From Vulcanisaeta distributa DSM 14429 (GTDB lineage: Archaea; Thermoproteota; Thermoprotei; Thermoproteales; Thermocladiaceae): a DNA stretch of 32,000 nt. The stretch lies in contig NC_014537.1 of assembly GCF_000148385.1 (NCBI RefSeq), positions 120,001-152,000 of the forward strand, given 5' to 3'. Position numbers and translations under genes: made by a program. Position 1 is the first letter of the stretch; every line of letters begins with the position of its first letter. Shown here in pieces: positions 1 through 15,276 of the stretch. The notes under the pieces were generated by a model. It was given only the letters and a program-made list of their open reading frames with translations, did no database searches and was not told the DNA's origin.

Positions 1-1749
1 ATCACCCTGCTTAACGCGGCCCTTAACGCCCTTAGATATTAATGGACTCACAACGGCAATCACATCCTCATAGTGCACATTGGGCCTTATCTTAACAATA
101 CTCATTAAATCAAGCCAACGCCTGATCCTTGGGGTCATGGCCGCTAAACCAATAATGCCCAGAAATAGTGCTGAATAGTATGTCGTGTTTATCAGCAGCC
201 CTATTAACGTGCCTAAATTAAATGGATTTAACTCAGCGTTTTTAATTATCATTAGTGAGTCATTAAGCCAGGTAATGTATGAGCCATTCCACAACGCATA
301 GTAATTAAGCCTATACGGCTTAATACCAATAATCACAATACTAATCACCGTCTCATTACAAGTGCCGCGGCACGTGAGGGACGCCGTAACCCTAAAACTC
401 CTTAACTCATTAATTGCACTTGTGTAATTACCCAAGCCACCGCATGACTCATTAACTATGCCAAGTATCGCACTAACCACCTGCTGTGGCACGGTGGTTC
501 CCTGGTAAATAATTGATGGGTTAAGCACCTGCTCAAGGTCTTGGCAAAAGAGTTCGTGGTTTCTAATAATGCTGTTGATCCAGGACTGTGGGACTATGTT
601 TGTTGGCGTGCCCTGTACCGTTGAGTACGTTATTGAGCAGTTACCCCCTATGGGATTAATGGGCCTTACTAGCACCTGCGATGCGTATGCAATTACCGTA
701 ATATTACCACTACAGGGCGTTGTTACGTTTATGACTGCGTAACCATCATTCACGTTAACCCCAGCATTACCAATGCCATTCCACTCATAATTGAATAAGG
801 CCACTAATGAGTCGCCATTAAATACTGCGATTAACGGTAACCTAATGAACACAGTCCTATTATTAAACCCAGGGCTTATGGCTATTAGGTAATTCACGTT
901 AAACCTCATGAATAGGGCCACCACGCAATTAACCTTGTAAAGTATTGGTTGTATCCTCAACGTGTAAATTGGTAGGGCTATTAAACCCACACCATTGGGT
1001 AGACCAACAACCTCGCTGTATGTAAAACCATAGCCATTAATGCACAGGACCGACGGTACTGACCTACCCAACTCATCAACCACCTCAATATTTATGAAAC
1101 CCACGTTAGTCGGGACAACACTCATCGTGCTAGGCATACTTATTACCGGTGATGAATACGTGGTGTTTATACCCAGGGGTAGCGCAACGCCAAGGATTAG
1201 GTAAATCGCGACTGGGATAGCCACCGTACTCCTAACCCTAGGTATAACAAGGAGGGGTGCCATGTACGGCATGAACAGCCTAAGCACTCCGCCGATGAGC
1301 ACGGCATACTTAGTGAGCCACAACGCAGCAACAAGTGTTGAGAGGACACGAACAACATAATTAATTACCAGAGTTACTAGGTGCTCAATGACATCGATGA
1401 CGAGAATGATCGAGCCGAGGCCCGACCCAGTGACTACATACATTGCGGCCTCGGCTATGGGTAGACCCACGTTAACGACCACCGAAAGGACTGCGTCAGC
1501 CATACCCAATGAGCCTATCAAGCCATTGTAAGCACTCAACAACCCATCGATTGTATTTATCGCAGTGTTGGTTGAGTATAGGCTACTGGGTATTAAGCCG
1601 TAGAAATTAGTGACCAGGGCAAGGGCTATGGCATACCAAACAAGGTCCTCAACATCAACCCTAAACTCCCTACCCCTAATCACGGCATTAAGCGCCCTAA
1701 CCAATAATGAACCAACCATCACAACTACAACGAGAGTCAGACCCAACAT
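1..1749 (-). CDS. large polytopic membrane / surface glycoprotein; N-terminal 583 codons, gene continues past the left window edge
   Basis: Absent from the ORF track because it has no stop in the window. By-eye translation of the reverse frame is open from ATG 1749-1747 down to base 1 (MLGLTLVVVVMVGSLLVRALN...). The first ~200 aa contain several hydrophobic helices, followed by a Cys- and N-x-S/T-rich domain. The architecture resembles the 1444-aa ORF. It shares an LSAYN segment with the neighbouring 134-aa ORF. Confidence 0.65.
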   Translation of the reverse strand, partial: MLGLTLVVVVMVGSLLVRALNAVIRGREFRVDVEDLVWYAIALALVTNFYGLIPSSLYSTNTAINTIDGLLSAYNGLIGSLGMADAVLSVVVNVGLPIAEAAMYVVTGSGLGSIILVIDVIEHLVTLVINYVVRVLSTLVAALWLTKYAVLIGGVLRLFMPYMAPLLVIPRVRSTVAIPVAIYLILGVALPLGINTTYSSPVISMPSTMSVVPTNVGFINIEVVDELGRSVPSVLCINGYGFTYSEVVGLPNGVGLIALPIYTLRIQPILYKVNCVVALFMRFNVNYLIAISPGFNNRTVFIRLPLIAVFNGDSLVALFNYEWNGIGNAGVNVNDGYAVINVTTPCSGNITVIAYASQVLVRPINPIGGNCSITYSTVQGTPTNIVPQSWINSIIRNHELFCQDLEQVLNPSIIYQGTTVPQQVVSAILGIVNESCGGLGNYTSAINELRSFRVTASLTCRGTCNETVISIVIIGIKPYRLNYYALWNGSYITWLNDSLMIIKNAELNPFNLGTLIGLLINTTYYSALFLGIIGLAAMTPRIRRWLDLMSIVKIRPNVHYEDVIAVVSPLISKGVKGRVKQGD

Positions 1750-1755
1750 GCATGG

Positions 1756-2160
1756 TCACGACAACGCAGACCTAATGGCGTAAATTACAGCAAAGAGCAT
1801 AGCATAGAGGATAATGACTATGACATCCGCCTGCGCAATATACACAGCAAGCCTATTGTAGGCACTAAGCACATCGCCAAAGCCACTAACGCTAAGACCC
1901 ACGTTCTGACACCAGGTAGTCTCAAAGCTCCTAGGGTTAATTATCGACTGTATGACCTTATCACTAATCATGGCGCCATAGAAGGGCTGCGAAGCTATTA
2001 CGGCAGCACCACCCACCACAACCACGTAGAGGCCAAGACCCACGGCAACAAACAACGAACCAACACCCCTAAGCCTAGACACGGAAAGACCAAGCCCAAT
2101 CACTATCAACAATGAGGACAGGCCCGGCGTCCACTGGGCCAGGTAAATCATGGGCACCAC
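1756..2160 (-). CDS. small multi-TM membrane protein
   Basis: 134-aa ORF with 3-4 hydrophobic segments. The track start is GTG at 2160; an in-frame ATG at 2151 is an alternative. It ends 6 nt before the next minus-strand start at 1749. Confidence 0.6.
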   Translation of the reverse strand: MVPMIYLAQWTPGLSSLLIVIGLGLSVSRLRGVGSLFVAVGLGLYVVVVGGAAVIASQPFYGAMISDKVIQSIINPRSFETTWCQNVGLSVSGFGDVLSAYNRLAVYIAQADVIVIILYAMLFAVIYAIRSALS

Positions 2161-2243
2161 ATCCTCCGTCGACTCCAGTATTATCGTAGCATTCTCAGTC
2201 TGTACACTCCTAACATCACACCAGGGATACGTGAGGGGGCATG

Positions 2244-3791
2244 CTAATTGCCGCGGCCGCCCCCCTTTATGGGTAGCGTGAGTCTCGTGAGATGCTTAAC
2301 GATTATTTGCTCCTTCCTTTCACTCTTTATCATCCTAAGTTTCTGACATAATACTCTAATTACTTGCACTCTAATATCGTCATATCTCTCAATTAGGCGC
2401 ATTGGTACTACGATCGTCAAATACTTACCACCTTTCTCAGGATAAACGTTTATTTGGCTGACAAACTCATCGCCATAAATACTCTTCAACTTCTCAAGAA
2501 TTTCCTTAACCTCCTTCTCATCTTTGGCGTGGTGTCGTAGTTCAACTGTACCCTCCTTAATCGTTACGCTAAATGCATGATCAGCAATAACAATAATCTG
2601 CATACCTTTTCTAAACTTTGGTTCAAACTCTGCTATCTGCTTTATATTTATCCATGTCTTAACAGCTAAAGCATCAATAACATCCTTTATTATTGATGGC
2701 AGGATACTAATCATTCCCCTAGCAAGCTTAATAGCATGAGAACCATTAAATACCACATTAACCGAATTTCTGTCAGTGCGAGGAACCTTATTCCACGAAA
2801 ATCCAGTACTCTTCAATTTCTCGAGCAATGGCTTCCACATTTTATACTTTTCGGACGACATAACTATTTCTATTACAGGTTTAGCATAGTGACCATTATC
2901 AGCAATAAAAGCGCTTCCATCACCAAGTACGGCGGTAAACAAAATGGCAAGTAGCGCCTCCCTGCTGAGCTTACTAAGCTTTTCAGTGTCCTTTAAGAAG
3001 CCTTTAAGCGATTTATGATCAAGTGACCTTAAGTGCCATGTTACTGTTACATCATACTTATTCACATTAACAGAATGTATATGCATGTGTACCCTGCCAT
3101 AATATATCAACGACCATAACACGGCTTGCCAAGGCTTACTTGTACCCATAACAGGCTTACTCTCATCCACGCTCTCATCCGTCTCTGCGAATCCCACTTT
3201 TAATGGTATAAGTAATTCTCTAATGAACTTCTCATACTCATCTTTACTCATTACTCTCATGAAAATATTGGGTATTTCTATTGTCATGCCTTCAAGGTCC
3301 TTCAACACTAAATGAAGCACTACCCCCTCGGTCTTACTTACATTAAGCAGTATATTCTTACCATAAACACTTAATCCAGACATATTCTCCCAAATAACAA
3401 CCTCTGCCTTACCACCTACTAAATTATCAATGATCTCCTTAACCTCAATACCATTCTCAATCCAGTACTCCCTGAACCTATCAATATAACTAATGAACTC
3501 ATCAAACACGTTAAGAATGCCGTTAACGACATCATCATTATATACGCCCCTTAGTCTCTCATAAACATTCCTCTTCTTCGCTTGCCACTCCATCTTATAT
3601 ATATCAATCCACCACGGCTCCCAAATACGCCACTTAAACATTCTATCAATAGCCTCAGCCAGCAGGCTAACATACCGATTAATTATATCTGAATCGTTAA
3701 CTGTATTACCACAAATATATTTTCTACCGTGTTTAATACCAAAATAGAAGCTATTTCTCTTCAATTTAATGTCAAGGGGCCCCAGGCCCAT
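2244..3791 (-). CDS. hypothetical protein with a LAGLIDADG-like motif (possible homing-endonuclease-derived domain)
   Basis: The track ORF runs to 4130, but its first 113 codons are Gly/Pro-rich read-through of GC-rich structured repeats. I start at ATG 3791 (MGLGPLDIKLK...). The motif LAILFTAVLGDGSAF resembles LAGLIDADG. The gene body is clearly more AT-rich than its neighbours. Confidence 0.6.
   Translation of the reverse strand: MGLGPLDIKLKRNSFYFGIKHGRKYICGNTVNDSDIINRYVSLLAEAIDRMFKWRIWEPWWIDIYKMEWQAKKRNVYERLRGVYNDDVVNGILNVFDEFISYIDRFREYWIENGIEVKEIIDNLVGGKAEVVIWENMSGLSVYGKNILLNVSKTEGVVLHLVLKDLEGMTIEIPNIFMRVMSKDEYEKFIRELLIPLKVGFAETDESVDESKPVMGTSKPWQAVLWSLIYYGRVHMHIHSVNVNKYDVTVTWHLRSLDHKSLKGFLKDTEKLSKLSREALLAILFTAVLGDGSAFIADNGHYAKPVIEIVMSSEKYKMWKPLLEKLKSTGFSWNKVPRTDRNSVNVVFNGSHAIKLARGMISILPSIIKDVIDALAVKTWINIKQIAEFEPKFRKGMQIIVIADHAFSVTIKEGTVELRHHAKDEKEVKEILEKLKSIYGDEFVSQINVYPEKGGKYLTIVVPMRLIERYDDIRVQVIRVLCQKLRMIKSERKEQIIVKHLTRLTLPIKGGGRGN
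2251..2280. repeat. left arm of an imperfect ~30-bp inverted repeat
   Basis: CCGCGGCCGCCCCC(c)tttatGGGTAGCGTG. Its inverted partner is at 5419-5446. Confidence 0.5.
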
Positions 3792-3867
3792 TGCCGCCCC
3801 GCCTACGTTATTATCGATTTCACGCTGCTTAGGTGTCTCAACACCCCCACTCGCTGTGTCCCTAACC

Positions 3868-3978
3868 GCCCCGGCCGCGGGGGCGGTGGAGGATGGCTGG
3901 TTTTGACCCCCACCCAGGCCCACGGGACTGGGGGTTGGGTCCCATGGGGCGGCCCCCTGGGCGGGGGGCTCATTGGAT
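3868..3978 (-). repeat. GC-rich leader repeat, copy E5 (related to the copies at 5449-5507 and 8141-8200)
   Basis: It shares GGGGGCGG..GGTGGA at one end and GGGGnCTCAT at the other with the E1 and E2 copies. An internal imperfect hairpin is gacccccacccag / ctgggggttgggtc. It lies just upstream of the 3791 start. Confidence 0.45.
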
Positions 3979-3996
3979 TGAGGTCTAGTCGTCATC

Positions 3997-4247
3997 CCGA
4001 CCACCTGGGGTCCTACGCCCCGCAGGGCTTTCGTCCCGACAGTGCCTGGTAGGCCTACACGGGACCGACTCAGCCCCTGTCGGCCACCCAGGGTGTCGGG
4101 ACTATAACCCCACGGGGCCATACCACCCACCTAGCCGTGAGCCAAAGTACGGAGAGACAAAGAGGGGTAGGAAGGAAGAAAACAAGCCAGGATGGGTAGG
4201 CGCCCCGTGGGGTAGACCCCACGGGGCGTAGGACCCCAGGTGATCGG
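3997..4247 (-). ncRNA. candidate ~250-nt structured RNA (or structured 5' leader) closed by a 26-bp long-range helix
   Basis: 3997-4022 (ccgaccacctggggtcctacgccccg) is complementary to 4222-4247 (cggggcgtaggaccccaggtgatcgg). The single non-Watson-Crick position is U-G on the minus strand but C-A on the plus strand. Internal helices include GUCCCGACA/UGUCGGGAC and a perfect 12-bp hairpin at 4201-4228. A TATA-like box at 4288-4295 sits upstream in the minus sense. Confidence 0.45.
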
Positions 4248-4287
4248 CCCCACCCCCACGGGGCCCACTACCTCCTATCGTCACACC

Positions 4288-4295
4288 CTTAAATA
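4288..4295 (-). promoter_or_regulatory. TATA-like box (sense TATTTAAG) upstream of the structured RNA
   Basis: Same box family as the gene promoters in this window. The predicted start near 4267 is the beginning of the GC-rich structured segment. Confidence 0.4.
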
Positions 4296-4494
4296 CCCAT
4301 TGCTCCACGGCATTCGATAAAACAATCAAGCATTTGTTTAGTAATTCCCTGGGTTTTGTGTATTATTTTGCTAGGGTGTTGGACAATTCATTAATAACTT
4401 GTTTCGCGTATTAGTAAAACATTATATCACTTATTCCATTTATGAGTTGCATTTTATTCTTTTTAGCCTTGGATTTGCTAAATATTATTGCTTT

Positions 4495-4724
4495 CCCCTG
4501 CCCATCCTCTCCATCCCTCCCGCCGGCCCTGTGGGTTTGGCTCTTGGTGATCCCAAGCCCCCATCGCCATCCCACGGGCGGCACCCCCAGCCTTCGGACT
4601 CCCGGGGCTCATGGAGATCCCAAGCCCCCACAGCCCCCCACACACGCCGGGAGCCCCCCTACAAGGGGAGCCACCGGCCCGCAAGGGAGAATGGGGGAGG
4701 AGGGGGTGGGAGGATGGGCAGGGG
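4495..4724 (-). ncRNA. GC-rich structured element immediately 3' of the 232-aa gene
   Basis: Terminal 15-bp helix: 4495-4509 cccctgcccatcctc pairs with 4710-4724 gaggatgggcagggg. Internal 15-nt direct repeat gatcccaagccccca at 4549-4563 and 4616-4630. It contains the ATGAGCCCC motif (minus sense) shared with E1, E2 and E5. An abrupt 165-bp AT-rich tract follows at 4331-4494. Confidence 0.4.
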
Positions 4725-4733
4725 TTTGAGTGG

Positions 4734-5432
4734 TTAAAGCCAAAGCCACCATGGGTGCTTTGTTAGTTCAATGCTTATGTCGTACTTACGAGCCAATCGT
4801 TGCAGTTCTGCGAGGATTTGACTAAGTTCCATGTTGTAGAGTAGCAGGTCAGTGCAGTCTAATTCTTCGCCCTCGTAAATCACCTTACCCTCCTTACTAC
4901 AATTCTTCAGTAGTAACTCAATCCTAGTAATCTGGGCCAGTAAGTCGCCAATACCTGAGTTAATTAATTTACTAATCACCACATCATTGCTTATTGACGA
5001 TATCCTCCTAACGTTATTCATGACATAGCCAATCACCGCATCATATACTGCATTACTTAAATCCTTGATTAAGCTCTCCCTAACGTCTATCCTTGATAGG
5101 TCGACCTCCTTAATCGCTGACTCAGCAATTTTCTTACCATAAGCCTTAACCAGCGGATGTAAAAGAGACGCAATTGTTATTAATGCGCGGAAATACCACG
5201 TGCGTAAACACCGCTTAATCCTCTTATCATAATGCCGATCAGCTAGGTCGTACCTAAGGCAATCCTTCGTGAAATACCGCTTAACGCTTTTTTCATCATA
5301 ATCCCTCAAACGCTTAAGCAATATGCTTGCAAGCCTAACACTCTCATTCCAAGCATTAACCATACTCATCACCATTACCGTACTTACTACAGACACAACC
5401 AACAACATCACCACCATCCACGCACTACCCAC
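4734..5432 (-). CDS. hypothetical protein with an N-terminal TM helix
   Basis: 232-aa ORF. The track start is GTG at 5432, with an alternative ATG at 5417 (MVVMLLVVSVVSTVMV...). More AT-rich than the surrounding cluster. Confidence 0.55.
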   Translation of the reverse strand: MGSAWMVVMLLVVSVVSTVMVMSMVNAWNESVRLASILLKRLRDYDEKSVKRYFTKDCLRYDLADRHYDKRIKRCLRTWYFRALITIASLLHPLVKAYGKKIAESAIKEVDLSRIDVRESLIKDLSNAVYDAVIGYVMNNVRRISSISNDVVISKLINSGIGDLLAQITRIELLLKNCSKEGKVIYEGEELDCTDLLLYNMELSQILAELQRLARKYDISIELTKHPWWLWL

Positions 5433-5446
5433 GGGGGCGGCCGCGG
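5419..5446. repeat. right arm of an imperfect ~30-bp inverted repeat
   Basis: The reverse complement reads CCGCGGCCGCCCCCgtGGGTAGtGCGTG. The 14-nt core is identical to 2251-2264, and the GGGTAG..CGTG tail is also shared. Confidence 0.5.
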
Positions 5447-5448
5447 TG

Positions 5449-5507
5449 GATCATCCCCAACCCTCCGCCCGGGCTGTTCCCGGGTGGTTTGGTTGGGGAC
5501 TCATTGC
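5449..5507 (-). repeat. GC-rich hairpin leader repeat, copy E1
   Basis: Hairpin CCCCAACC-CT-CCGCCCGGG-ctgtt-CCCGGGTGG-TTT-GGTTGGGG (5455-5498). About 80% identical to 8141-8200. It lies between a TATA box (5531-5538) and the 232-aa gene start. Confidence 0.6.
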
Positions 5508-5530
5508 CTTTAATCAACTGGGTGGCTGAG

Positions 5531-5538
5531 TTAATAAG
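5531..5538 (-). promoter_or_regulatory. TATA box (sense CTTATTAA, preceded by GGCCGC) for the 232-aa gene
   Basis: Matches the local promoter consensus. It predicts an ~80-95 nt leader containing hairpin E1. Confidence 0.4.
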
Positions 5539-5594
5539 GCGGCCTTAGCGCTTGGGGCGATGCCTTTATTAACCCCGGCCAAGCCTTAGTCAGT

Positions 5595-5698
5595 GGCTGG
5601 GCGGGGGTGGTCCGCCCGGGTCAGCACGTCGTCTCTTCTTCAGAGTTCTGCTCGTGCCGTGAACATCAGGCCCGGGCTAACCCACCCCCAACCCAGCC
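5595..5698 (-). ncRNA. C/D box sRNA (core 5621-5669) embedded in a ~22-bp GC clamp
   Basis: The minus strand reads C box cUGAUGU, 12 nt UCACGGCACGAG, D' CAGA, 4 nt, C' UGAAGA, 12 nt AGAGACGACGUG, D box CUGA. This is the canonical archaeal 12-nt guide spacing. The flanks 5595-5620 and 5671-5698 pair with each other (GGCTGGG/CCCAGCC, GGGGGTGG/CCACCCCC, GCCCGGG/CCCGGGC). The D' guide is complementary to CUCGUGCCGUGA, which I recall as a conserved archaeal 16S rRNA segment. Confidence 0.6.
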
Positions 5699-5780
5699 CC
5701 CACCCAAGGCCAGGCCGGGGGGTGGTCAACCCGGGCTTGGCGGCGATGCATTTATTAAGCCCCAAACCAACTGAGCCCTA

Positions 5781-5878
5781 GGGGCCGGGGTGGGTCGGCC
5801 CGGGAAACAGCTGCGAAGCCGCTCATCAACGACAGCTTGTGCCCCATCATCAAGCCCCCGGGCTTCATCCCCACCCCA
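5781..5878 (-). ncRNA. second C/D-box-like unit (core 5807-5853) with atypical CUGU D and D' boxes, in a GC clamp
   Basis: The minus strand reads uUGAUGA, 11 nt UGGGGCACAAG, CUGU, 3 nt, UGAUGA, 12 nt GCGGCUUCGCAG, CUGU. The flanking stem is GGGGTGGG..GCCCGGG / CCCGGGC..CCCCACCCC. It is a tandem paralogue of the 5595-5698 unit, including the shared flank cttggNgcgatgcMtttattaa. Confidence 0.4.
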
Positions 5879-5908
5879 AGCCAACCCCACCCAGTTGGTT
5901 GGGGCGGG

Positions 5909-7285
5909 TTAGCCCGGGTTTTGTTGCTTGGTGCATTGGATTCCGTAGTTCGTTAATTCAGCGCAGTACCGCCTAAACCTCCTGTCGAATAGCACGACGT
6001 CGATAACCTCATTGGGCATTAACCTGCCTATTGCCTGTACGGTCTTCATGACCACTAGGTCGGTGCTCCTTAAGCCCCTCGCCTCAAGCCTCCTCATTAC
6101 ATTGCTTGGTAGTAGGGGGAGTGTGAGGAGTACGGCCCTCCTATAGCAGTTGAGCCTAACACCCTCGGCGAACCTACCGAAGAACCTCAGGACGAGGTTC
6201 CTCCTGCATACATCCTCCCTCCTAACCTCATCCTCATAAACCGCATTCTCGATCAAGACCTCCTTACTACTCGTAGTGAAAATCACCGTCAAAGCACCAT
6301 CACTCAACAAGTCATTGACTTGCCTAGCGACTTCACTCTTAAGTCTCTCTACATTCTCTGTGGTCATGACCACACTCCCTAACCTAGCCCTAACTAATTG
6401 GCTAGGCTCTACCCTAACAACAGGTATTGAGGTTAGTATTGATGGTGGTAGGGTTGCCGACATCAAGAGCACCCTCTTATTGCTCGGCAACTCCAACCCC
6501 TCAAACCTAACACCCACCAGTGCGTCGCTGTCCTGGTCGTAGTATGTAATTGATGACTCAATGAATGCCACCAGGTCATCCATACTAACTATTTCATTGA
6601 CCTCACCATCCATCGCCATTGCAGGTAAGAGCTCACTCAAAACACCCCTAACAAGCTCCGCGCTCCTAACATCCAAGTCCTCAACCCCAAGCCTACCGAG
6701 GAGTAGCTCAACACCCCTCCTGGAAAGGCTGACGAGCTTTGGAATAACTGCATTATGCGCTTCATCAATGATTACACCGCCTACTTTCCCAGCGTACTTC
6801 CCCAGCCTGCTGTAGTTCATAAGCACGACGATGTCATCATACCTACCCAGTAACTCCCTGATCAGCGCCTCCTGGACGTTGTACGGGCATAACCGGCCCT
6901 GCTCAGCCAAATCCCTAACCTCGGCGTAGTCCGAGGCGTTGATTAACGCCTTGACCAGGGGAACCGGCTTATTGAGTTGGCAGAACCCACAGGGCCTCCT
7001 AACAACAAAGTCACTGTGCCTAAAGCCCCTGGTACAAAGCCTCTCCCTACCAGTCGATAGGAAGTGCCTAACGCCGAACTCACCCAAGGCCCTACTCGCC
7101 TGGGCCAGGGCGTTGATTAGGCTTGATGCCCAGACCCACTTACCGCCCAACTGCCTTATTACGTATGATGCCACGTAGCTCTTACCCCAACCGGTTGGGG
7201 CTTGAAGACCAACAATACCCCTCTCCCTAAGTAGAGCCAGTAATTTATTCGCCACATCCAATTGATCACTCCTCAGGTTAGCCAT
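5909..7285 (-). CDS. XPD/Rad3/DinG-family superfamily-2 helicase with a 4Fe-4S Cys cluster (compact, 458 aa)
   Basis: Motif I LQAPTGWGKS and motif II VIIDEAHN. Four Cys arranged C-x16-C-x2-C-x~33-CPY between motifs I and II, as in XPD FeS domains. Also LLMSATLPP, FAEGVRL...LPLLP and QAIGRL...LFDRRF. Confidence 0.8.
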   Translation of the reverse strand: MANLRSDQLDVANKLLALLRERGIVGLQAPTGWGKSYVASYVIRQLGGKWVWASSLINALAQASRALGEFGVRHFLSTGRERLCTRGFRHSDFVVRRPCGFCQLNKPVPLVKALINASDYAEVRDLAEQGRLCPYNVQEALIRELLGRYDDIVVLMNYSRLGKYAGKVGGVIIDEAHNAVIPKLVSLSRRGVELLLGRLGVEDLDVRSAELVRGVLSELLPAMAMDGEVNEIVSMDDLVAFIESSITYYDQDSDALVGVRFEGLELPSNKRVLLMSATLPPSILTSIPVVRVEPSQLVRARLGSVVMTTENVERLKSEVARQVNDLLSDGALTVIFTTSSKEVLIENAVYEDEVRREDVCRRNLVLRFFGRFAEGVRLNCYRRAVLLTLPLLPSNVMRRLEARGLRSTDLVVMKTVQAIGRLMPNEVIDVVLFDRRFRRYCAELTNYGIQCTKQQNPG

Positions 7286-7289
7286 ACAA

Positions 7290-7820
7290 TCACCTCCTCA
7301 CCAGTGCCAGGGCTGCGATTATGATCAGTGGTATGAGCCACGGGGCCAGTTCAGAGGCCACGGCAACAACCACCGCAATGCCAACCGCAACGCCGAGGAG
7401 GAGTAGCACAGCCCTCCTGGCGCCCTCCCTCCTACGCCTAGCCTCAACCTCATTGATCTTGTCAATGATCAACCACCTAAGCCTAGCCTCAACAGCCCCG
7501 ACCTCACGCCTAACAACATCAACGACGCTGGGTTGATTAGATTGACTACTAATCAACCGCCTAAGCTCGTTGATTTCCTCGCCAAGCTCATCAAGCCTCC
7601 TAACGACGTCATTAATACTGCCCGACCCAACCTCGTTAAGCAACTGCCTCCTCAAATCCTCAATCTCCCTAACGAGGATCTTAACAACCTCTTTCCTAAC
7701 ACTCTCCAAGCTCCTGGACCTCATTGAGTCTAGGTAATCAAGCAACTCCTCCCTAAACTCCCCAAGCCTCCTATCAACATACTCCCTAAGCCTCATGAAC
7801 TCTTCATCACCCTCCATCAA
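7290..7820 (-). CDS. coiled-coil protein with a C-terminal TM anchor
   Basis: 176-aa ORF with E/R/L-rich heptad-like sequence, then LLLLGVAVGIAVVVAVASELAPWLIPLIIIAALAL. It overlaps the upstream ORF by 14 nt. Confidence 0.6.
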   Translation of the reverse strand: MMEGDEEFMRLREYVDRRLGEFREELLDYLDSMRSRSLESVRKEVVKILVREIEDLRRQLLNEVGSGSINDVVRRLDELGEEINELRRLISSQSNQPSVVDVVRREVGAVEARLRWLIIDKINEVEARRRREGARRAVLLLLGVAVGIAVVVAVASELAPWLIPLIIIAALALVRR

Positions 7821-8073
7821 TAATCACCTTCCTGATTATCATCTTGCCTTTACTCTTGTGGACAATTTCGTAACCCTCCTCGTAAAGTATCGCAGGCAAA
7901 TACTGGCTTAGTGCAATCATTACGCTGGTAATGATGTTTTCCGGCAAATACCTACTCATGAACCGCCTAACCCTTGCAGTGGTTATTTTGTACGTCTTGC
8001 CACCATCATTACGTCGAATATTCACCCTATATTTCTCAAGCTCCTCATCCAGAAATTTCTTGAACAACCTCAC
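7807..8073 (-). CDS. small basic hypothetical protein
   Basis: 88-aa ORF with a GTG start. It is preceded by a ~130-nt GC-rich leader containing repeat E2. Confidence 0.45.
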   Translation of the reverse strand: MRLFKKFLDEELEKYRVNIRRNDGGKTYKITTARVRRFMSRYLPENIITSVMIALSQYLPAILYEEGYEIVHKSKGKMIIRKVIIDGG

Positions 8074-8140
8074 CGCGATACCTGCGTACTTTGGTTCATA
8101 ATCATGCCTGCGGGCCTGCGGTGGGCCTGGGGCACCCTTG

Positions 8141-8200
8141 AATCACCCCCAACCCTCCACCCGGGCCAAGCCCAGGTGGTTTGGTCAGGGGCTCATCACC
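8141..8200 (-). repeat. GC-rich hairpin leader repeat, copy E2
   Basis: aatcacccccaaccctccacccgggccaagcccaggtggtttggtcaggggctcatcacc aligns with 5449-5507. In the minus sense it begins GGUGAUGAGCCCCUGACC, which contains C-box-like and D-box-like strings. Confidence 0.6.
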
Positions 8201-8224
8201 TCCACTAATAATAGAATAATTTGA

Positions 8225-8232
8225 ATTTAAGG
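8225..8232 (-). promoter_or_regulatory. TATA box (sense CTTAAATT, preceded by CCCCGC)
   Basis: Located ~150 nt upstream of the GTG at 8073. It predicts a transcript starting at the 5' edge of repeat E2. Confidence 0.4.
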
Positions 8233-8237
8233 CGGGG

Positions 8238-8747
8238 TTAGTAGAGCTTGACCCTGCATGGTATTGACCCTCTATACCTATTGGCTAGGTCCCTATCCGC
8301 GTTGTAGCCCGAGGCCCTCAGCATTGCGTGGATTGCATATGACGCCTTCGGCCTTCCCATCCTCACCCAATTCCTGGCCACGATATTTAGTACTCCGTGT
8401 AAGTAAGCAATGTTCCTAATAATGCCCTCGGCACCCACAGCCTTAAACGGCGTTATGTGGGGGTCGGCGTTGACGACTTTGAAGGCATACCTCGGAATCC
8501 CAACTCTCCCCAGGAGGTGCGTTACCAGTGCCATGTAGTGGCTTGGGTACGCGGTCAAGGGTTTAATGCCCTGCCTAATTAAGTCTGTGAGTCCATGTAA
8601 GTCCTCCACACTAATGACTGCATGTTTAATGCTACTTACGGCAATTGCACAGTCATCCATGTCAACGTCAGCAACGCCAACCACGGCCTTACCGCAGAAT
8701 AACAACTCCCTAGGCTCTATGTAGAAGGCTAGGGCCTCCCAACGCAT
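8238..8747 (-). CDS. hypothetical protein
   Basis: 169-aa ORF with an ATG start. It overlaps the upstream ATPase gene by 19 nt, which suggests translational coupling. Confidence 0.6.
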   Translation of the reverse strand: MRWEALAFYIEPRELLFCGKAVVGVADVDMDDCAIAVSSIKHAVISVEDLHGLTDLIRQGIKPLTAYPSHYMALVTHLLGRVGIPRYAFKVVNADPHITPFKAVGAEGIIRNIAYLHGVLNIVARNWVRMGRPKASYAIHAMLRASGYNADRDLANRYRGSIPCRVKLY

Positions 8748-10066
8748 TCCCAGACACCCTCAAGCCTATCCTTCATCTTCGCATCAGTGAAGCCAGACTC
8801 CCTAATCACGTCGAGCCTAACTCCATGAGCCTCGGCGCATTTCCTAAGCGTTGTTGTGCCTGTCTTTGGCTTTATTGTTGGGTCTACCTCGACGGTTAGT
8901 AGGTTGTATGGCTCCCTGTGCTCGTTCCTCATTTGCCTGTTGGTTATGTGTATGTGCATGACGGCGGTCAGTGGGTTCTCCCAGTGTGCCGGTGGTATGG
9001 CGCTCCAGGTCTTCTCTGCATTGTAGTACACGTCCCTACCATAGTGGGCCTTGAAGCCAGGCTCCCTGAAGATTATGTTCTCGGGGTTGAAGTACAGTGT
9101 TGGGAACTCAATGAATAGCTTATTCATGCTTATGAACTCCCTGGGTATGTCGAATGGGCTTTGGGTGATTAGGGCGAAGTACCTCCCGTAGTTCCTACCA
9201 ACCCTGACACTGGTTGTCAACGTCGACTCACCAAGCCTGAAGTATAGGTGGGCCTCATCAATCACAAGGATCAGGTCCCTGGCCTGCATGGAGTTCAGTA
9301 TAGCCAGGAGCGACAGCACGTAGAACCAACGCTGGACCGGCGAGAACCAGCTTAGGTCAATGCCTATGGATTTACCCCTCAACCCACCATTGATTAAGCG
9401 ATTAATCAGTGGGTGGGTCCTACCAAAGAGCCAGTGGTTGAAGTAGGTGAGCCTCCTAATCAAGCCCCTGGCGCTGTTAACCTCGTCCTCCCTAGCCAAG
9501 GCACCGCCACTGACCAAGTCATTGAGGTGCTTAATCAACCCACTAATCGATACCTCACCAACAGCCCTGCCCCTATCGGAAACGGCCTGCGGTATAGGTT
9601 GATTGCCCAATTGATCGTCTGCCTGGCCAGTTAATTCGCCGTAAGCCCTCATGAACATGTACTCCATCGCAGGGGTCATTACGTAGGGCAGTCTCGGGAA
9701 CCTCATGGTGAGGACCTCCTCAATCACATCCAAAGCCTCAATATCACTCAGGTAATCCAGCGGGTTTAGTGGGTACGGCGCGTAGTAGTCGGTGTAGCCC
9801 TCGTAGGTGCCGGCGGCGTCGAAGACCACGACCGCGTAGTCGCAGGGCACGCTCATCAGGGCATTCTTAATGAGCGTGGTCTTCCCAGTCCCAATTGAGC
9901 CGAAGATCAGTGCATGCGTCTCATCAAGGACCATGAAGTGGAATAGGTGCCTAGCCGGGTCATTAATCATGTCCCTAAGGCTCGGCCTGCACGGGTCATC
10001 CCGACCAGCAGAACCCACTTGACCAACCTGCTGGTTAATCCGCCCTTGTCTCCTTATGAACATCAC
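8729..10066 (-). CDS. HerA/VirB4/TraG-type (DUF87-like) P-loop NTPase, soluble
   Basis: Walker A IFGSIGTGKTT, Walker B LILVIDEAHLYF, and ALITQSP. No TM segment. An ATG at 10063 is an alternative start. Confidence 0.75.
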   Translation of the reverse strand: MMFIRRQGRINQQVGQVGSAGRDDPCRPSLRDMINDPARHLFHFMVLDETHALIFGSIGTGKTTLIKNALMSVPCDYAVVVFDAAGTYEGYTDYYAPYPLNPLDYLSDIEALDVIEEVLTMRFPRLPYVMTPAMEYMFMRAYGELTGQADDQLGNQPIPQAVSDRGRAVGEVSISGLIKHLNDLVSGGALAREDEVNSARGLIRRLTYFNHWLFGRTHPLINRLINGGLRGKSIGIDLSWFSPVQRWFYVLSLLAILNSMQARDLILVIDEAHLYFRLGESTLTTSVRVGRNYGRYFALITQSPFDIPREFISMNKLFIEFPTLYFNPENIIFREPGFKAHYGRDVYYNAEKTWSAIPPAHWENPLTAVMHIHITNRQMRNEHREPYNLLTVEVDPTIKPKTGTTTLRKCAEAHGVRLDVIRESGFTDAKMKDRLEGVWECVGRP

Positions 10067-10910
10067 TACTCCAGCCTAACCGCCTTATAAGGGTTAGTGC
10101 CTTTGTCGTTGCTCTTACGGTCATGTCGCTTGGGTTGAAAACCACATATCCCATCGACAGTGCCTTTATCACGGCTTCCTGACCAACTAAGTCCCCCAGC
10201 GCCTTCAACGTCGCCACGCCGCCCAAGTCCTTGATTAGGACCTCGACGGCATTAACCACGTCATTGCTGACCCAAGCCTCGGTGGGCTCAGCGAGGCTGA
10301 ACTGCCTCGCCGGAACCTCAACAAACCTCCTACTAACCCCAATGACCTCAACCCTACTGTTGAATTCCGTGGTCTCCCTAAGCTCGTCAATCCTCGGGAT
10401 CCTAACCAACCTCCTAATGACTTCATCGAAAATGAACACCCTATTAACATCAAAGACGCTTGAGTGCACCGCAATGTCTATGCCCAGGGCCTTTAACTGA
10501 GCCAGTGCATCAGTGAGCCTAGGCCATAAATCCGAGTAGAACTCCACATTAACCCTCAATGAGGATGCAAGGGCCAAGCCAATTATTGTACTGATGGGCT
10601 CGATGATCGATATCGGGGCTGAGTGGAGTATGGCCTTGAGCTCATCCGTGTTGAACTCACTGGTGAATTTAACGCTTGCTGGCATTGCGAATCCACAGTC
10701 CTCAAAGACCTGGCTCAACGACTCTAGGTGAGTCGAGTCGCAGTTGATGTTTAACTCACGGAACACCCTATTGATTAGGGCCTTACCCAAGGCATTGAGC
10801 CTCGCATCAGGCACGCCACTAAGAGCCCTGGCATCCCCGGTGAACCTAAAGGTCACCCCAGTCGTTATCCCACCATAATCAAGCCTACCGAGGACAAGCC
10901 TAAGCATCAT
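10035..10910 (-). CDS. hypothetical protein, possible C-terminal winged-helix
   Basis: 291-aa ORF. It begins 14 nt after the stop of the 1444-aa gene and overlaps the downstream ATPase gene by 32 nt. Confidence 0.6.
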   Translation of the reverse strand: MMLRLVLGRLDYGGITTGVTFRFTGDARALSGVPDARLNALGKALINRVFRELNINCDSTHLESLSQVFEDCGFAMPASVKFTSEFNTDELKAILHSAPISIIEPISTIIGLALASSLRVNVEFYSDLWPRLTDALAQLKALGIDIAVHSSVFDVNRVFIFDEVIRRLVRIPRIDELRETTEFNSRVEVIGVSRRFVEVPARQFSLAEPTEAWVSNDVVNAVEVLIKDLGGVATLKALGDLVGQEAVIKALSMGYVVFNPSDMTVRATTKALTLIRRLGWSSDVHKETRAD

Positions 10911-10924
10911 TAAAGGTTACTCAA

Positions 10925-13900
10925 TCACTTATTAGGCTGGTCACCCACGTACCTCCCCAAGCCATCAATGAGGGCCTCAGCAACCACCACGGCCTCCATC
11001 AAGTTCACCACCTTAAGCCCAAGTTCCGCATCCCTAAACTCATTAATTATCCTGCCCAGTGAGTCCCTTAGGGCGTTTATTGAGGACCTCAACAGCTGTA
11101 TCCTGAGGTCGACGGCGCCGGTGTGGGAGAGGGCGTTGAGTGCGTTGTTGACGGCGCCCAAGGCACTCCCATAAATCGCCAACCTCCTCCTCAACTCACC
11201 AACCTCCCCACTCAGCTCCTCAGCCCCACCAAGACCCCCACTACCCACTAAATCACTTAACTTAGCCTCCAAGTCCCTAAGCCTACCCCTCAGCTCATCA
11301 ACCTCACTACTCAACCTACTCGCCAAGCCCCTCAGCATTACCTCAGCCTCGCCAACCGCGTAGTCCCTTACCTGACTCAGCACTTCAATCGCCAGCCTCG
11401 GTGGCATGTACCTGGCCAGCAAGTGCCTAAGCCCATCATCACTGATTGAGTCCACTCCAATAAACCCACCCCTAACGTGCTTAGCCTGGTCGCTACTCAG
11501 GACGAGACCCCACAGGTCTTTATGGAACTCCCTAAAGACGTCACTGTTCGGCTTAGCCATCGACGCCTTGATTACGAGGTCCCTGGCCACACCCTCGACA
11601 GACTCCATGTCAACAAACCCATCCTCGTGAAGCGCCCTCAAAGCCCTTGCCAAGGCCTTCAGCTCGCCTGGCCCAATCCTAAGCCTACCATACTCCTCAC
11701 TGAATGACTGCCACTCAATGGCCCTGTTAACGTCGACACCCAACTCACTGAGTAGCTCCAGTAGGGCAACCAGCGGCTGCTTGCGGATTGAGTCCGCGTA
11801 GTCGATTAGGCCTATTACCGAAGCCCTACCGCCAACGCTCAACCTATTAATCACACCATCCCTAGCGGTCACCGCAAGGTGCAACCTAACGACGGAGTCT
11901 ACGAGGAGGTCACTCCTCACAATCGAGGCAATCCTGGGGAATACCTCACTAAATGACTTATCACCAACCAACGCATCAACACCATGCCTAAGCAACCCAC
12001 CATACTCCCCCATAAACCTCCCAAACTCCATAAACCCCCTGACCTGCTCCCTAACCCACCCTCCATAATTAACATTCCTGAGGAACTCACCAATAGCCAT
12101 TGGTAGGGCCTCCTTAACGGCGGCCCCCCAAGCCCTCGACTCAAGGGCCTCCCTGAACCTAGCCCCAACGAATGGGCTTAGGGCCTTCGTGAGCTCCCTA
12201 ACACTGAGCCTGTTAATGATCATCAAATCCTCACTACTTGCACCACCGCTCAACGCCTTGTTAATGCGCTCGGTGTGCCTAACCCACCAGCTATTAATCA
12301 CCTCAATTGCCTTGGCATCATCCCTAAACGCCTCAAGGAGTGGCTTGAGGACGTCACGGCTTAGGGCCACGCCACCCCTAAGGTTATGGAGGGCGTCAAT
12401 GATTAGCTTAACATCGCCCCTGGCTAACTCCCTAACCTGCCTATCCCTCATGTGCTTGGACATTAACTCCCTAGCCCTGTTGCCCAGGGCTTTGTCTAGG
12501 AGCTCCCTGGCCCTACCATGCTCAACACCCATTAATTGGCTTAGCTCAACAAGCCTATGGAGTTCACCGTTAATTAGGGCATTGATCACACCCTTAACCT
12601 CACTAAGCCTCCTAATGCCAGTTAATGCCTTGCCGTGGAGCTCCCTAACGTACGGAGTTAGGGCGATGGCCAACAACCTAGCCGAGTCAAGCCTTGAGTT
12701 CTTAACGACCAAGCCCTTACCCCCACCAAGCCAGTACTTACTAACTAAAGACTCCATCAAACCCCTAAGCCTCGGGTCTTTGACAGCCTTAACCTCAAAG
12801 GGCCTTGGCATACTCAAGGATGCAAAGGCGTCCTCCACAGCCCTCTTGATGCCAATCCTCCTGGCAACAGCCCTAGTCACCAGGTGGGCCGGCAGGTCAT
12901 CCCCAGCCCCACCACCGCGGCTGTAAACCCTCCTATCCAGTACGGCACCACCCCTAAACCTAAGCCCAACAACCTCATGAAGCCTACCCCTCATCCCAGC
13001 CTCCCTCCATATTGGGTACTCCCCAACAAACGAAGCCACACCCGCGCCAACCCTGGCCAGCCCAGCCAAGGCACGCCTATGCCGCTGCCCATAAACCACC
13101 GCCTTACCCCTAAGCATGCTCTCCACATCCTCCATCGCGGCACTCACCGGCCTAGCCAGTGGGCTTGGGTCCCAGGGGCTCGGTAGGTGGCGGCTCAGCC
13201 TACGCCAGGCTGGGTGGTTAGGCCTAGAACCCCTCAACGCACTGACCGCCTTAGCGAATTCATGGTGTATAACCATCAACGGCCCAACAACCCCACCAAG
13301 CCTCCCACCTCTACGCATCCTCAATGCGACGCCCTCCCTAAGCCCCCTAACCCTCGAAGCCACTGACGACCTAACCCTCCTAAAAAGCCTACCAAGGACT
13401 CTGCTAACGCCAGCAACCCTTAGGTAGAGTATTAGGGATAGGTCCATGACCACGTTGCTCAGTACCGACCATGCTGGGCTTAGTGGTGTTGGGAGGTTGG
13501 CGATCCACATTGCCGCATCCAATAAGCCGAGTATTGCGACGGCTTCAGCGAGCCACTTGGGTATGAAGTAGCCGACACCGAGTAGCAAGCCGTTGAAGTA
13601 TGACCAGCCGGTGAGTAGTCTTTGGGAGCCAACCACCATGGAGTTTATGACCCAGGTGGTGCTCGGCGTCAAGCCTATTGGGTCCGTGCCGAACCATGGG
13701 TTGTTTATGTTGCCGATTATCGTTATTACCCCCGGCACCGTCACCGTCTCATTGGAGTGATTGATACATGTTACCGTGATCTCCACCTGGCTATACCCAA
13801 CCGGCTCCGGGTTTGGAAGTGCCAGGCTGAGGTTCCTACCCATTCCCGTGATCTCCCTGCCGATGGTTACCTCCTCATTGATCTTACTGACTAGGTCCCT

Positions 13901-15256
13901 TAGCTCACTCTCCTCATCGTTGATGCTCACCGTTCTGTAGAGTGTGCTGTTCAGCACCGAGTATTGGCATGTCGTTGAGTTTCCGACCCTGGTTGGCACG
14001 TTGATTAACGCATCGCCCGCGAAGTACCAAAGCGTTGCAGACGCCACCCCTGGAAAGCACTCCCCATGCGTCACGCCTGTCCTTGGGTTCGTCACGTTTA
14101 TGCACCGCATTGGTGGTACGTTGATTGTGAAGTTTATGGCTGCGGTGTTATTCCCATTAAGCACTGAGTACTTGCTTGGCGAATCAAGCCACTGCCAGGC
14201 GCCGGTGTAGAGGGTTGAGCCGTTTAGCGTTGCAGTTACTACGTTGAATGGTGGGTTGCCGAACTCAATGACCTCCGCGTAGGTGGCGTTACTGCTTAGG
14301 TAAGCCGCTGAGTCGCATGGCTCCGCAGTGCTTTGGTTGCCTGCGTAGGTTAGGAGTAGGCAGTCATGGCCTGGGTTTACCAGTAACCACAGGAATGTTG
14401 TGTTGGTTATCTCCGGAGTGCCGAAGGCATTAATTGGAGTCACAGACCCAGTGAATGCGGTGAAGCCACTCACTGGGTACTCAGTGAGTGCCACAGACCT
14501 GCCAATGACCGTGTAATTCACCCCATAGAGCACCCCACCGACCAAGTACGGGTACGGGCTGCCTAGGATCAAGAAGCCCCTGACCACGGCGTTAGGTGCG
14601 TTTTGGGTGAGCCAATTCATTAGGGCCGTGGTCTCATTCATTAATTGATTTTTCGAGGCAATCATCGCGTCTTTAGCCGCGATCGTTGTTATGAAGAGTA
14701 TGGTTAAGGTGACGATGAACAAAGCCGCGCCAGCCGCCCTAGTCCTATCCATGACCATCAAGGCCGCGGCGATGCCGATGACCAATGGGGCGATTGCGTA
14801 GCTGAACCAGGCCAGGTAGGCGATGGTGTGTAGCACAGCCGTCATAACCTGGGCGACATGCATCACTGCAAAGATTACGTCGGCGATTGGGTCGATGATG
14901 AAGCCAAGGCCCTGGATCACCGTGAACCCCTGAAGCGGGATTGCACCAATGCCGAGGGTGCTTATTACTGCTACCACATTGAGTACCGTCATGCCCACAG
15001 CCCAGGCAAGGCCTGCGTAGGCACTCGAGTAGTAGACCAGGGACCAATCACCAACCAAGCCCTCCACCTCACGGTAGAGGATTAAGTATGTCGGTGAGCC
15101 GGGGGGTGCAATGCCGAGTAATGTGGGTAGTGCATAGGCTAGGATTAAGGCAGTGCCGGCAGCAATGAACCTCCTAACCCCAACACCACCCCTAACCACC
15201 CCGTAAATCATTACCACCAAGCCCTCAATAAGTAATGCGTAGCCGAGTGGATCCAT
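10925..15256 (-). CDS. giant membrane protein: N-terminal polytopic domain, glycosylated ectodomain, further TM helices, then an ~850-aa helical / coiled-coil cytoplasmic domain
   Basis: 1444-aa ORF (ATG at 15256; the track uses TTG at 15259). About 6 TM helices in the first 200 aa. More than 12 N-x-S/T sequons between aa ~240 and 520. More TM helices near aa 560-620, then Arg/Leu/Glu-rich helical sequence. A TATA box lies 21 nt upstream. Confidence 0.8.
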   Translation of the reverse strand: MDPLGYALLIEGLVVMIYGVVRGGVGVRRFIAAGTALILAYALPTLLGIAPPGSPTYLILYREVEGLVGDWSLVYYSSAYAGLAWAVGMTVLNVVAVISTLGIGAIPLQGFTVIQGLGFIIDPIADVIFAVMHVAQVMTAVLHTIAYLAWFSYAIAPLVIGIAAALMVMDRTRAAGAALFIVTLTILFITTIAAKDAMIASKNQLMNETTALMNWLTQNAPNAVVRGFLILGSPYPYLVGGVLYGVNYTVIGRSVALTEYPVSGFTAFTGSVTPINAFGTPEITNTTFLWLLVNPGHDCLLLTYAGNQSTAEPCDSAAYLSSNATYAEVIEFGNPPFNVVTATLNGSTLYTGAWQWLDSPSKYSVLNGNNTAAINFTINVPPMRCINVTNPRTGVTHGECFPGVASATLWYFAGDALINVPTRVGNSTTCQYSVLNSTLYRTVSINDEESELRDLVSKINEEVTIGREITGMGRNLSLALPNPEPVGYSQVEITVTCINHSNETVTVPGVITIIGNINNPWFGTDPIGLTPSTTWVINSMVVGSQRLLTGWSYFNGLLLGVGYFIPKWLAEAVAILGLLDAAMWIANLPTPLSPAWSVLSNVVMDLSLILYLRVAGVSRVLGRLFRRVRSSVASRVRGLREGVALRMRRGGRLGGVVGPLMVIHHEFAKAVSALRGSRPNHPAWRRLSRHLPSPWDPSPLARPVSAAMEDVESMLRGKAVVYGQRHRRALAGLARVGAGVASFVGEYPIWREAGMRGRLHEVVGLRFRGGAVLDRRVYSRGGGAGDDLPAHLVTRAVARRIGIKRAVEDAFASLSMPRPFEVKAVKDPRLRGLMESLVSKYWLGGGKGLVVKNSRLDSARLLAIALTPYVRELHGKALTGIRRLSEVKGVINALINGELHRLVELSQLMGVEHGRARELLDKALGNRARELMSKHMRDRQVRELARGDVKLIIDALHNLRGGVALSRDVLKPLLEAFRDDAKAIEVINSWWVRHTERINKALSGGASSEDLMIINRLSVRELTKALSPFVGARFREALESRAWGAAVKEALPMAIGEFLRNVNYGGWVREQVRGFMEFGRFMGEYGGLLRHGVDALVGDKSFSEVFPRIASIVRSDLLVDSVVRLHLAVTARDGVINRLSVGGRASVIGLIDYADSIRKQPLVALLELLSELGVDVNRAIEWQSFSEEYGRLRIGPGELKALARALRALHEDGFVDMESVEGVARDLVIKASMAKPNSDVFREFHKDLWGLVLSSDQAKHVRGGFIGVDSISDDGLRHLLARYMPPRLAIEVLSQVRDYAVGEAEVMLRGLASRLSSEVDELRGRLRDLEAKLSDLVGSGGLGGAEELSGEVGELRRRLAIYGSALGAVNNALNALSHTGAVDLRIQLLRSSINALRDSLGRIINEFRDAELGLKVVNLMEAVVVAEALIDGLGRYVGDQPNK

Positions 15257-15276
15257 CAATTAATGAGGCAAGGCAA

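What the first reader, a model, noticed from the sequence alone, without database searches (positions are those of the whole stretch)
3997..4295. ~250-nt GC-rich RNA closed by a 26-bp helix, with a mutually exclusive 12-bp hairpin, upstream of the LAGLIDADG-like gene
Bases 3997-4022 and 4222-4247 form 26 consecutive pairs. The single non-canonical pair is a U-G wobble only if the RNA is minus-sense. Seven nucleotides of one arm (4222-4228) are also part of a perfect hairpin, CGCCCCGUGGGG-UCUA-CCCCACGGGGCG (4201-4228). The two structures therefore compete, which is switch-like geometry. The palindromic decamer CCCCGTGGGG/CCCCACGGGG occurs four times in 160 nt. A TATA box at 4288-4295 would start transcription at the edge of the structure. 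That gives either an independent ncRNA or a ~475-nt leader, in a window where the large majority of genes are leaderless. I could not match it to SRP RNA, RNase P RNA, rRNA or tRNA.
Basis: seen in the sequence. Interest (0 to 1): 0.6.

Follow-up and report, generated by a model that had tools for sequence, protein, structure and literature searches.

The report
RNA clamp silencing archaeal nuclease genes
This is a heat-stable folded 5' leader, found only in the hot-spring archaeon Vulcanisaeta, whose long closing helix buries the ribosome-binding site of the gene behind it, and the same leader is reused in front of two unrelated kinds of DNA-cutting genes, most likely to keep them untranslated.

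Summary
The structure is real (helix 3997-4247, z about -7.6, no Rfam match). It is most likely a cis-acting mRNA leader of about 270 nt, not a free ncRNA or a 475-nt leader. The gene starts at AUG 3995 (583 aa, LAGLIDADG fold), and its Shine-Dalgarno (4006-4002) is paired with a 16S-like anti-SD in the 5' arm.

About 20 related copies were found, only in this genus. Outer arms differ between loci but pair with their own partner (-42 vs -15 kcal/mol; G-U 25, A-C 0), and the core covaries. In all 15 long copies tested an AUG lies at the helix end behind a buried SD. The cargo is either a LAGLIDADG protein (as little as 22% identical between loci) or a short TnpB-like RuvC protein.

The rival hairpin recurs but is one state of a sliding four-way junction; both modelled states keep the SD paired, so it is not the on/off switch. 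The opening route is unknown, and no RNA data were available.

The parts
4288..4295 (-). TATA box (TATTTAAG); inferred start about 23 nt downstream, near 4265
   Evidence: TATA-like box 23-63 nt before the outer helix in 9 of 9 long LAGLIDADG-linked copies, and 23-24 nt in three of them; start site inferred, not mapped
4229..4247 (-). 5' arm of outer helix P0; carries GAUCACCU (4245-4238), identical to the 16S rRNA anti-SD
4217..4228 (-). repeat r1 (pairs with r4 in the final fold, or with r2 as the 12-bp hairpin)
4201..4212 (-). repeat r2 (pairs with r3 or r1)
4119..4201 (-). conserved core arm: RCCWAC...GUGGY helix, 1-nt bulge, pyrimidine-rich loop (4185-4137), conserved 3-nt bulge (4121-4119)
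   Evidence: RNAalifold consensus, 8 of 20 pairs compensatory; loops 78% C+U over 10 copies
4107..4118 (-). repeat r3 (pairs with r2 or r4)
4034..4101 (-). optional arm P3 with a recurring GU/UA internal loop; reduced or absent in several copies
4016..4028 (-). repeat r4 (pairs with r1 or r3)
3997..4015 (-). 3' arm of outer helix P0 containing the Shine-Dalgarno AGGUG (4006-4002)
2244..3995 (-). 583-aa two-motif LAGLIDADG-fold protein (motifs GFAETDE and AVLGDGS), AUG 2 nt after the helix end; about 70-aa low-complexity N-terminal extension
4325..4490 (.). AT-rich spacer with dyads (TTTCACG-N4-CGTGAAA in relatives, degenerate here), possible operator region
   Evidence: sequence comparison; function not tested
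4495..4724 (-). second structured element (A) that travels with most copies of the leader
   Evidence: z -6.0; 95% identical copy at genome 547.5 kb; present in relatives
4734..5432 (-). 232-aa helical protein of unknown function, upstream in the full module and lost in solo copies
5448..5504 (-). kink-turn-like hairpin at the head of the module, 60 nt identical to the 16S pre-rRNA leader

Best explanation
A cis-acting, translation-blocking 5' leader ('clamp') of nuclease mRNAs in Vulcanisaeta mobile DNA. Transcription from the TATA box (or read-through from upstream) gives a leader in which short palindromic hairpins r1:r2 and r3:r4 can fold first, bring the 5' anti-SD arm next to the SD as it emerges, and then slide by branch migration into a long three-way rod. 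Either way 19-45 bp of outer helix cover the SD and often the AUG, so the full-length mRNA is inert at 85-90 C. Expression needs removal of the 5' arm (processing and decay, a helicase, or another start site). Shown by computation: structure, covariation, strand asymmetry, SD/AUG position, reuse with unrelated cargo. Inferred: transcription, actual repression, folding order, purpose. Unknown: the opening step.
For: AUG at -13 to +6 nt from the helix end with the SD window in the helix in 10/10 long copies, against about 0.09 per copy by chance (in two of them the frame breaks further downstream). One copy found later by covariance model and four simplified TnpB-linked copies behave the same. 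Cost of opening the ribosome site at 85 C is 13.7 kcal/mol here and 3.3-21.4 across long copies, against 0.1-1.7 in short forms that lack the outer helix and 0.1-5.3 for nine ordinary window genes. Own-locus arm duplex -42.3 vs cross-locus -14.6 kcal/mol. G-U 25 vs A-C 0 in the arms of 14 loci. Core 97% paired, 8/20 pairs compensatory, 0/500 shuffles as high, slid controls at most 52%. 12 of 14 5' arms contain an anti-SD-like word. Cargo differs: LAGLIDADG proteins 22-65% identical and TnpB-like PF07282 proteins with D-E-D motifs. Precedent: RBS-sequestering hairpins of T4 homing endonucleases (PMC2988022).
Against: All evidence is computational; energies are nearest-neighbour values extrapolated to 85 C. 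At least six apparently intact paralogues in the same genome have no such leader, and short forms with a free SD precede full-length proteins, so the clamp is not required to tolerate these genes. The cloverleaf core survives in short forms without clamp or TATA box, which SD masking alone does not explain. No opening route was found: internal TATA-like box in only 1 of 14 copies and no shared antisense one; a single nick leaves the halves paired by 16-20 kcal/mol. Copies are kin, so counts are not independent, and C-to-U deamination of an exposed strand could add to the G-U excess.
Confidence: 0.65

Rival explanations
1. A discrete ncRNA that is the partner (scaffold, guide or decoy) of the downstream nuclease, with the variable pyrimidine loop as the specificity part.
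For: Own TATA box, closed 5'-3' ends, conserved core and variable loop; some LAGLIDADG proteins bind RNA as maturases and TnpB is RNA-guided (own knowledge).
Against: The leader does not follow the protein: near-identical short leaders precede proteins 27% identical, and the same core precedes a TnpB-like gene. The loop has no match beyond chance level in the genome (best 15 nt, E 0.08). The helix end coincides with SD and AUG.
Confidence: 0.1
2. A DNA-level single-strand structure (single-strand origin, transfer origin or mobile four-way junction for a resolvase) of the conjugative-type element.
For: Lies in a VirB4/VirB11/coupling-protein cluster beside an AT-rich tract with dyads; strand-specific; the r1-r4 core persists without TATA; pyrimidine-rich single strands suit archaeal primase (own knowledge).
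Against: TATA spacing and SD/AUG placement are RNA-level features; related leaders also sit at a mostly single-copy TnpB-like locus with no transfer genes seen nearby.
Confidence: 0.1
3. A true two-state switch (riboswitch or thermometer) in which the 12-bp hairpin opens the long helix.
For: An r1:r2 hairpin of 9-13 bp and r3:r4 pairing recur across the homologues with different sequences; the two conformers differ by only 2.8 kcal/mol at 37 C.
Against: Both conformers keep the SD-holding outer pairs; the final fold is favoured by about 7 kcal/mol at 85 C.
Confidence: 0.08
4. A substrate of the splicing endonuclease (relaxed bulge-helix motif at the conserved 3-nt bulge), giving an intron-like or circular RNA.
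For: A 3-nt bulge next to a 3-4-bp helix in all 13 aligned copies; crenarchaeal endonucleases accept relaxed motifs (PMC6379350); this genome's SRP RNA region also has a 42-bp helix.
Against: No canonical BHB compatible with the fold; the opposite bulge is 1 nt; the ORF lies outside the helix, unlike rRNA introns.
Confidence: 0.05
5. Chance folding of GC-rich DNA or a fragment of a dispersed repeat.
For: The region is GC-rich and both strands fold well.
Against: Covariation, locus-specific arm pairing and only three diverged covariance-model hits in the genome.
Confidence: 0.02

Closest known systems
RBS-sequestering hairpins of T-even phage homing endonuclease genes (I-TevI, I-TevII, I-TevIII, segB, mobE; PMC2988022)
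   Same: A stable RNA helix hides the SD of a homing-endonuclease gene on long transcripts.
   Different: Here the helix is long-range (110-300 nt span, 16-45 bp), encloses a conserved multi-arm core with four palindromic repeats, is archaeal, and in 13 of 14 copies has no internal promoter like the T4 late promoter that frees the site.
Type I toxin mRNA leaders (dinQ, PMC5066626; aapA3, PMC6733600; hok and tisB from own knowledge)
   Same: Primary transcript predicted inert through SD pairing; short hairpins that can form during transcription; activation would need processing.
   Different: Cargo is a 260-580-aa nuclease-fold protein, not a small membrane peptide; no antisense antitoxin promoter found; toxicity not shown.
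Thermoproteales rRNA/tRNA introns with LAGLIDADG genes and BHB processing stems
   Same: Same lineage, LAGLIDADG fold (I-Tsp061I among the hits), long closing helix.
   Different: No host rRNA or tRNA gene, the ORF lies outside the helix, no canonical BHB.
TnpB omega-RNA (OMEGA systems)
   Same: Structured RNA next to a TnpB-like RuvC gene at several loci.
   Different: It lies 5' of the gene and covers its SD, whereas omega-RNA overlaps the 3' end (own knowledge); no guide match found; it also precedes LAGLIDADG genes.

Membership tests
SD-sequestering cis-regulatory leader (T4 HEG type) | SD and start codon of the endonuclease gene lie in or at a stable helix | tested here: met
   15 of 15 long copies
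SD-sequestering cis-regulatory leader (T4 HEG type) | Pairing conserved by compensatory change | tested here: met
SD-sequestering cis-regulatory leader (T4 HEG type) | Second promoter inside the structure that yields an unblocked transcript | tested here: not met
   TATA-like word inside only 1 of 14 copies, none here; motif scan only
SD-sequestering cis-regulatory leader (T4 HEG type) | Repression shown by mutation | not testable with these tools
   needs a reporter
Riboswitch / two-state switch | Alternative fold frees the expression signal | tested here: not met
   both modelled conformers keep the SD paired
Riboswitch / two-state switch | Ligand-binding aptamer | not testable with these tools
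   no Rfam match
Type I toxin-antitoxin mRNA | Antisense antitoxin RNA with its own promoter | tested here: inconclusive
   no shared antisense TATA; no RNA data to test directly
Type I toxin-antitoxin mRNA | Toxic product | not testable with these tools
   catalytic-type acidic residues kept, but intact unclamped paralogues exist
Archaeal BHB intron / processing stem | 3-nt bulge, 4-bp helix, 3-nt bulge at the helix junction | tested here: not met
   only a half motif at 4121-4119
SRP RNA / RNase P RNA / tRNA / rRNA | Covariance-model match | tested here: not met
   the host copies lie elsewhere
Guide RNA of an RNA-guided nuclease | Variable segment complementary to a target | tested here: inconclusive
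   no match above chance in own genome; foreign targets not searched
LAGLIDADG endonuclease (downstream protein) | Fold and two acidic motif residues | tested here: met
   model pLDDT 86; top Foldseek hits are nearly all LAGLIDADG enzymes, best E 5e-5 but low TM-scores; D205 invariant, D291 nearly so

The most novel reading that the evidence does not exclude
A portable, processing-licensed RNA clamp with a built-in branch-migrating four-way junction that archaeal mobile elements attach to interchangeable nucleases (LAGLIDADG or RuvC-only TnpB-like). The conserved bulge or junction would be cut or bound by a specific factor, such as the splicing endonuclease, the element's helicase or the nuclease itself, to release translation after transfer or loss. 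That would be an archaeal counterpart of type I toxin mRNA control with a nuclease cargo.
Probability: 0.2. Interest if true: 0.8.

Novelty: new variant of a known kind. Interest (0 to 1): 0.55.

Why it matters
Cis-acting structured mRNA regulators are barely documented in crenarchaea (own knowledge). This family is not in Rfam, and I found no description in the searchable papers. It offers a compact, covarying, testable case of translational control at 85-90 C, evidence that SD pairing matters in Thermoproteales, and a reusable module that mobile DNA places in front of unrelated nucleases. It also corrects the gene start and points to two uncharacterised thermostable nuclease groups.

Tried and rejected
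- Rfam at gathering threshold on the window and nine homologous loci: nothing; E-value scan gave only GC-hairpin noise. ARAGORN: none.
- Hammerhead reading of CUGA...GAAA: rejected, CUGA is not conserved.
- PaRep2b label for the protein: no Pfam hit at E 0.1, so not claimed.
- Pattern scans: viral contigs 0; metagenomes 1 hit in unrelated sequence, judged chance. The search for related loci in genome contigs found nothing.
- Covariance model over 120 genomes of the class: hits only in this genus, 8 genomes; simplified TnpB-linked copies were missed by it.
- Guide search with the loop: chance level.
- Nick at the 3-nt bulge as sole opening step: not enough thermodynamically.
- Fold search of the 232-aa neighbour: only generic helical hairpins; Atlas gave no usable hit.
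- Pfam Phage_integrase hits in the genome lie near 740 kb, not near this element.
- Searches stopped with script errors after partial output; the automatic helix detection failed for some loci and was redone with fixed anchors.
- Three G004 copies carry homopolymer artefacts and were left out of the counts.

Full report
Setting. The window is G000:C1:120001-152000 of a 2,374,137-base, 45% GC genome. The region holds VirB4-, VirB11- and coupling-protein-like ATPases, an SF2 helicase and a RadA paralogue, close to tRNA-Met at 118518, so it is probably an integrated conjugative-type element.

Observation. The helix extends to 32 bp. The minus strand folds to -186.3 kcal/mol, z -7.63. Only five comparable ungapped inverted repeats were found in the genome. 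Rfam and ARAGORN find nothing. SRP RNA and RNase P RNA lie elsewhere.

Family. BLAST, pattern and covariance-model searches found diverged copies in this genome (548 kb, 1554 kb) and in seven other genomes, all of the same genus among 120 genomes of the class. A protein search added simplified copies in front of a TnpB-like gene. The anatomy is: outer helix P0; repeats r1 and r2; a conserved core arm with a 3-nt bulge, a 1-nt bulge and a pyrimidine-rich loop; r3; an optional arm P3; r4; and the P0 3' arm. The core is 97% paired with 8 of 20 pairs compensatory, above 500 shuffles and all slid controls (kin are not independent). Outer arms share little sequence between loci yet pair with their own partner (-42.3 vs -14.6 kcal/mol). 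Transition mismatches in the arms are G-U 25 to A-C 0 on the gene's sense strand. This points to a single strand of that sense, although biased deamination could contribute. A TATA-like box precedes all nine long LAGLIDADG-linked copies, 23-63 nt before P0.

What the helix covers. In 10 of 10 long copies an AUG lies -13 to +6 nt from the end of P0, against a chance of about 0.09 each. In eight it opens the long nuclease frame; in two G006 copies the frame breaks further on. A copy found afterwards by the covariance model and four simplified copies agree. In the window the SD is AGGUG at 4006-4002, the AUG is at 3995, and the product is 583 aa, the length of the database protein. SD strength is -11.0 there against -5.0 at AUG 3791. 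The 5' arm carries GAUCACCU, the 16S anti-SD itself. Opening the ribosome site costs 13.7 kcal/mol at 85 C here and 3.3-21.4 across long copies, but 0.1-1.7 in short forms lacking P0 and 0.1-5.3 in nine ordinary genes. The leader is therefore about 270 nt, not 475.

The 'switch'. r1 and r2 form a palindrome and r3 and r4 are its inverted copy, so r1:r2 plus r3:r4 and r1:r4 plus r2:r3 are two ends of a branch-migrating junction. But the two modelled conformers are -170.1 and -167.3 kcal/mol at 37 C, -52.2 and -45.3 at 85 C, and both keep the outer pairs over the SD. The junction cannot be the on/off step by itself. My inference is that the short hairpins fold first and deliver the anti-SD arm to the SD during transcription, as metastable hairpins do in type I toxin mRNAs (PMC6733600). 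Prefix folding shows the r1:r2 hairpin at 90-120 nt but also other transient folds, so this step is weakly supported.

Cargo. The window protein models with pLDDT 86, and its top structural matches are nearly all LAGLIDADG enzymes; both acidic motif residues are conserved. LAGLIDADG cargo proteins are only 22-65% identical between loci. In G005 the orthologous slot holds a different subfamily while neighbours stay 50-78% identical. Two full-type and four simplified leaders precede a short TnpB-like RuvC gene instead. The leader is thus independent of its cargo, which argues against a cognate guide or scaffold; the loop has no target in the genome above chance.

Open points. No route to the open state was found. 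There is no internal TATA-like box in 13 of 14 copies and no shared antisense one, no canonical BHB, and a nick at the 3-nt bulge leaves the halves paired by 16-20 kcal/mol unless the 5' piece is degraded. A transcript starting at r3 would be nearly open (0-5.4 kcal/mol). Short forms keep the cloverleaf without clamp or TATA box, so the core may have a second role. At least six apparently intact paralogues have no leader, so toxicity as the reason is unproven.

Comparison. It works like the RBS-sequestering hairpins of T-even homing endonuclease genes (PMC2988022) and like inert type I toxin leaders (PMC5066626). It lacks the internal promoter of the former and shows no antitoxin promoter like the latter. 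It is not an rRNA intron, SRP RNA, RNase P RNA or omega-RNA. I found no description in the searchable papers.

Verdict. A real, covarying, genus-restricted cis-regulatory RNA family; best read as a translation clamp on interchangeable nuclease genes (0.65). It is a new variant of a known kind, interest 0.55. The most novel reading not excluded is a processing-licensed, junction-based control module for mobile nucleases (probability 0.2, interest 0.8).

Noticed in passing
window 5447-5506 and 8139-8196 (minus); genome 633040-633099: A kink-turn-like hairpin of about 57 nt heads transcription units of this element; the copy at 5447-5506 is identical over 60 nt to the 16S pre-rRNA 5' leader, and covarying versions recur in all related elements.
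   Followed up: partly
L068 (G000 1016915-1018100) and L066, L067, L070, L072, L073: A mostly single-copy TnpB-like gene of about 257 aa with RuvC-I at its N-terminus (no N-terminal recognition lobe) and D-E-D motifs, found in 10 genomes of the genus; preceded by C/D-box-like motifs and a clamp, with a second helix pairing into the coding region.
   Followed up: partly
L041 (G005 954000-970000) vs window 1-15259: Orthologous element at the same tRNA-Met with neighbours 50-78% identical, but the LAGLIDADG gene in the same slot is only 24% identical to the window's and 49% to another paralogue, so the nuclease gene appears swapped behind the leader.
   Followed up: partly
window 4495-4724: Structure A holds two hairpins whose loop sequences resemble each other within a locus but differ between loci.
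   Followed up: no
L034 9350-11740 (G000 about 1553350-1555740): Solo 2.4-kb version (hairpin, structure A, short unclamped cloverleaf, LAGLIDADG gene) replacing about 60-100 nt of intergenic DNA relative to five relatives; no target duplication seen.
   Followed up: partly
window 2251-2264 and 5433-5446: Perfect 14-nt inverted repeat around the module; the same word follows the 1554-kb paralogue, and there are only three genome copies.
   Followed up: no
window 5909-29737: Conjugation-like cluster (VirB4-, VirB11- and coupling-protein-like ATPases, SF2 helicase, RadA paralogue), partly repeated in G002, G005 and three G006 loci; no Pfam tyrosine integrase hit nearby.
   Followed up: partly
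G000 869933-870171: The SRP RNA region contains a perfect 42-bp helix, unusually long.
   Followed up: no
G000, 17 tblastn loci: The LAGLIDADG-like family has about 17 copies in this genome, many frameshifted and several next to tRNA genes; only three carry the structured leader.
   Followed up: partly
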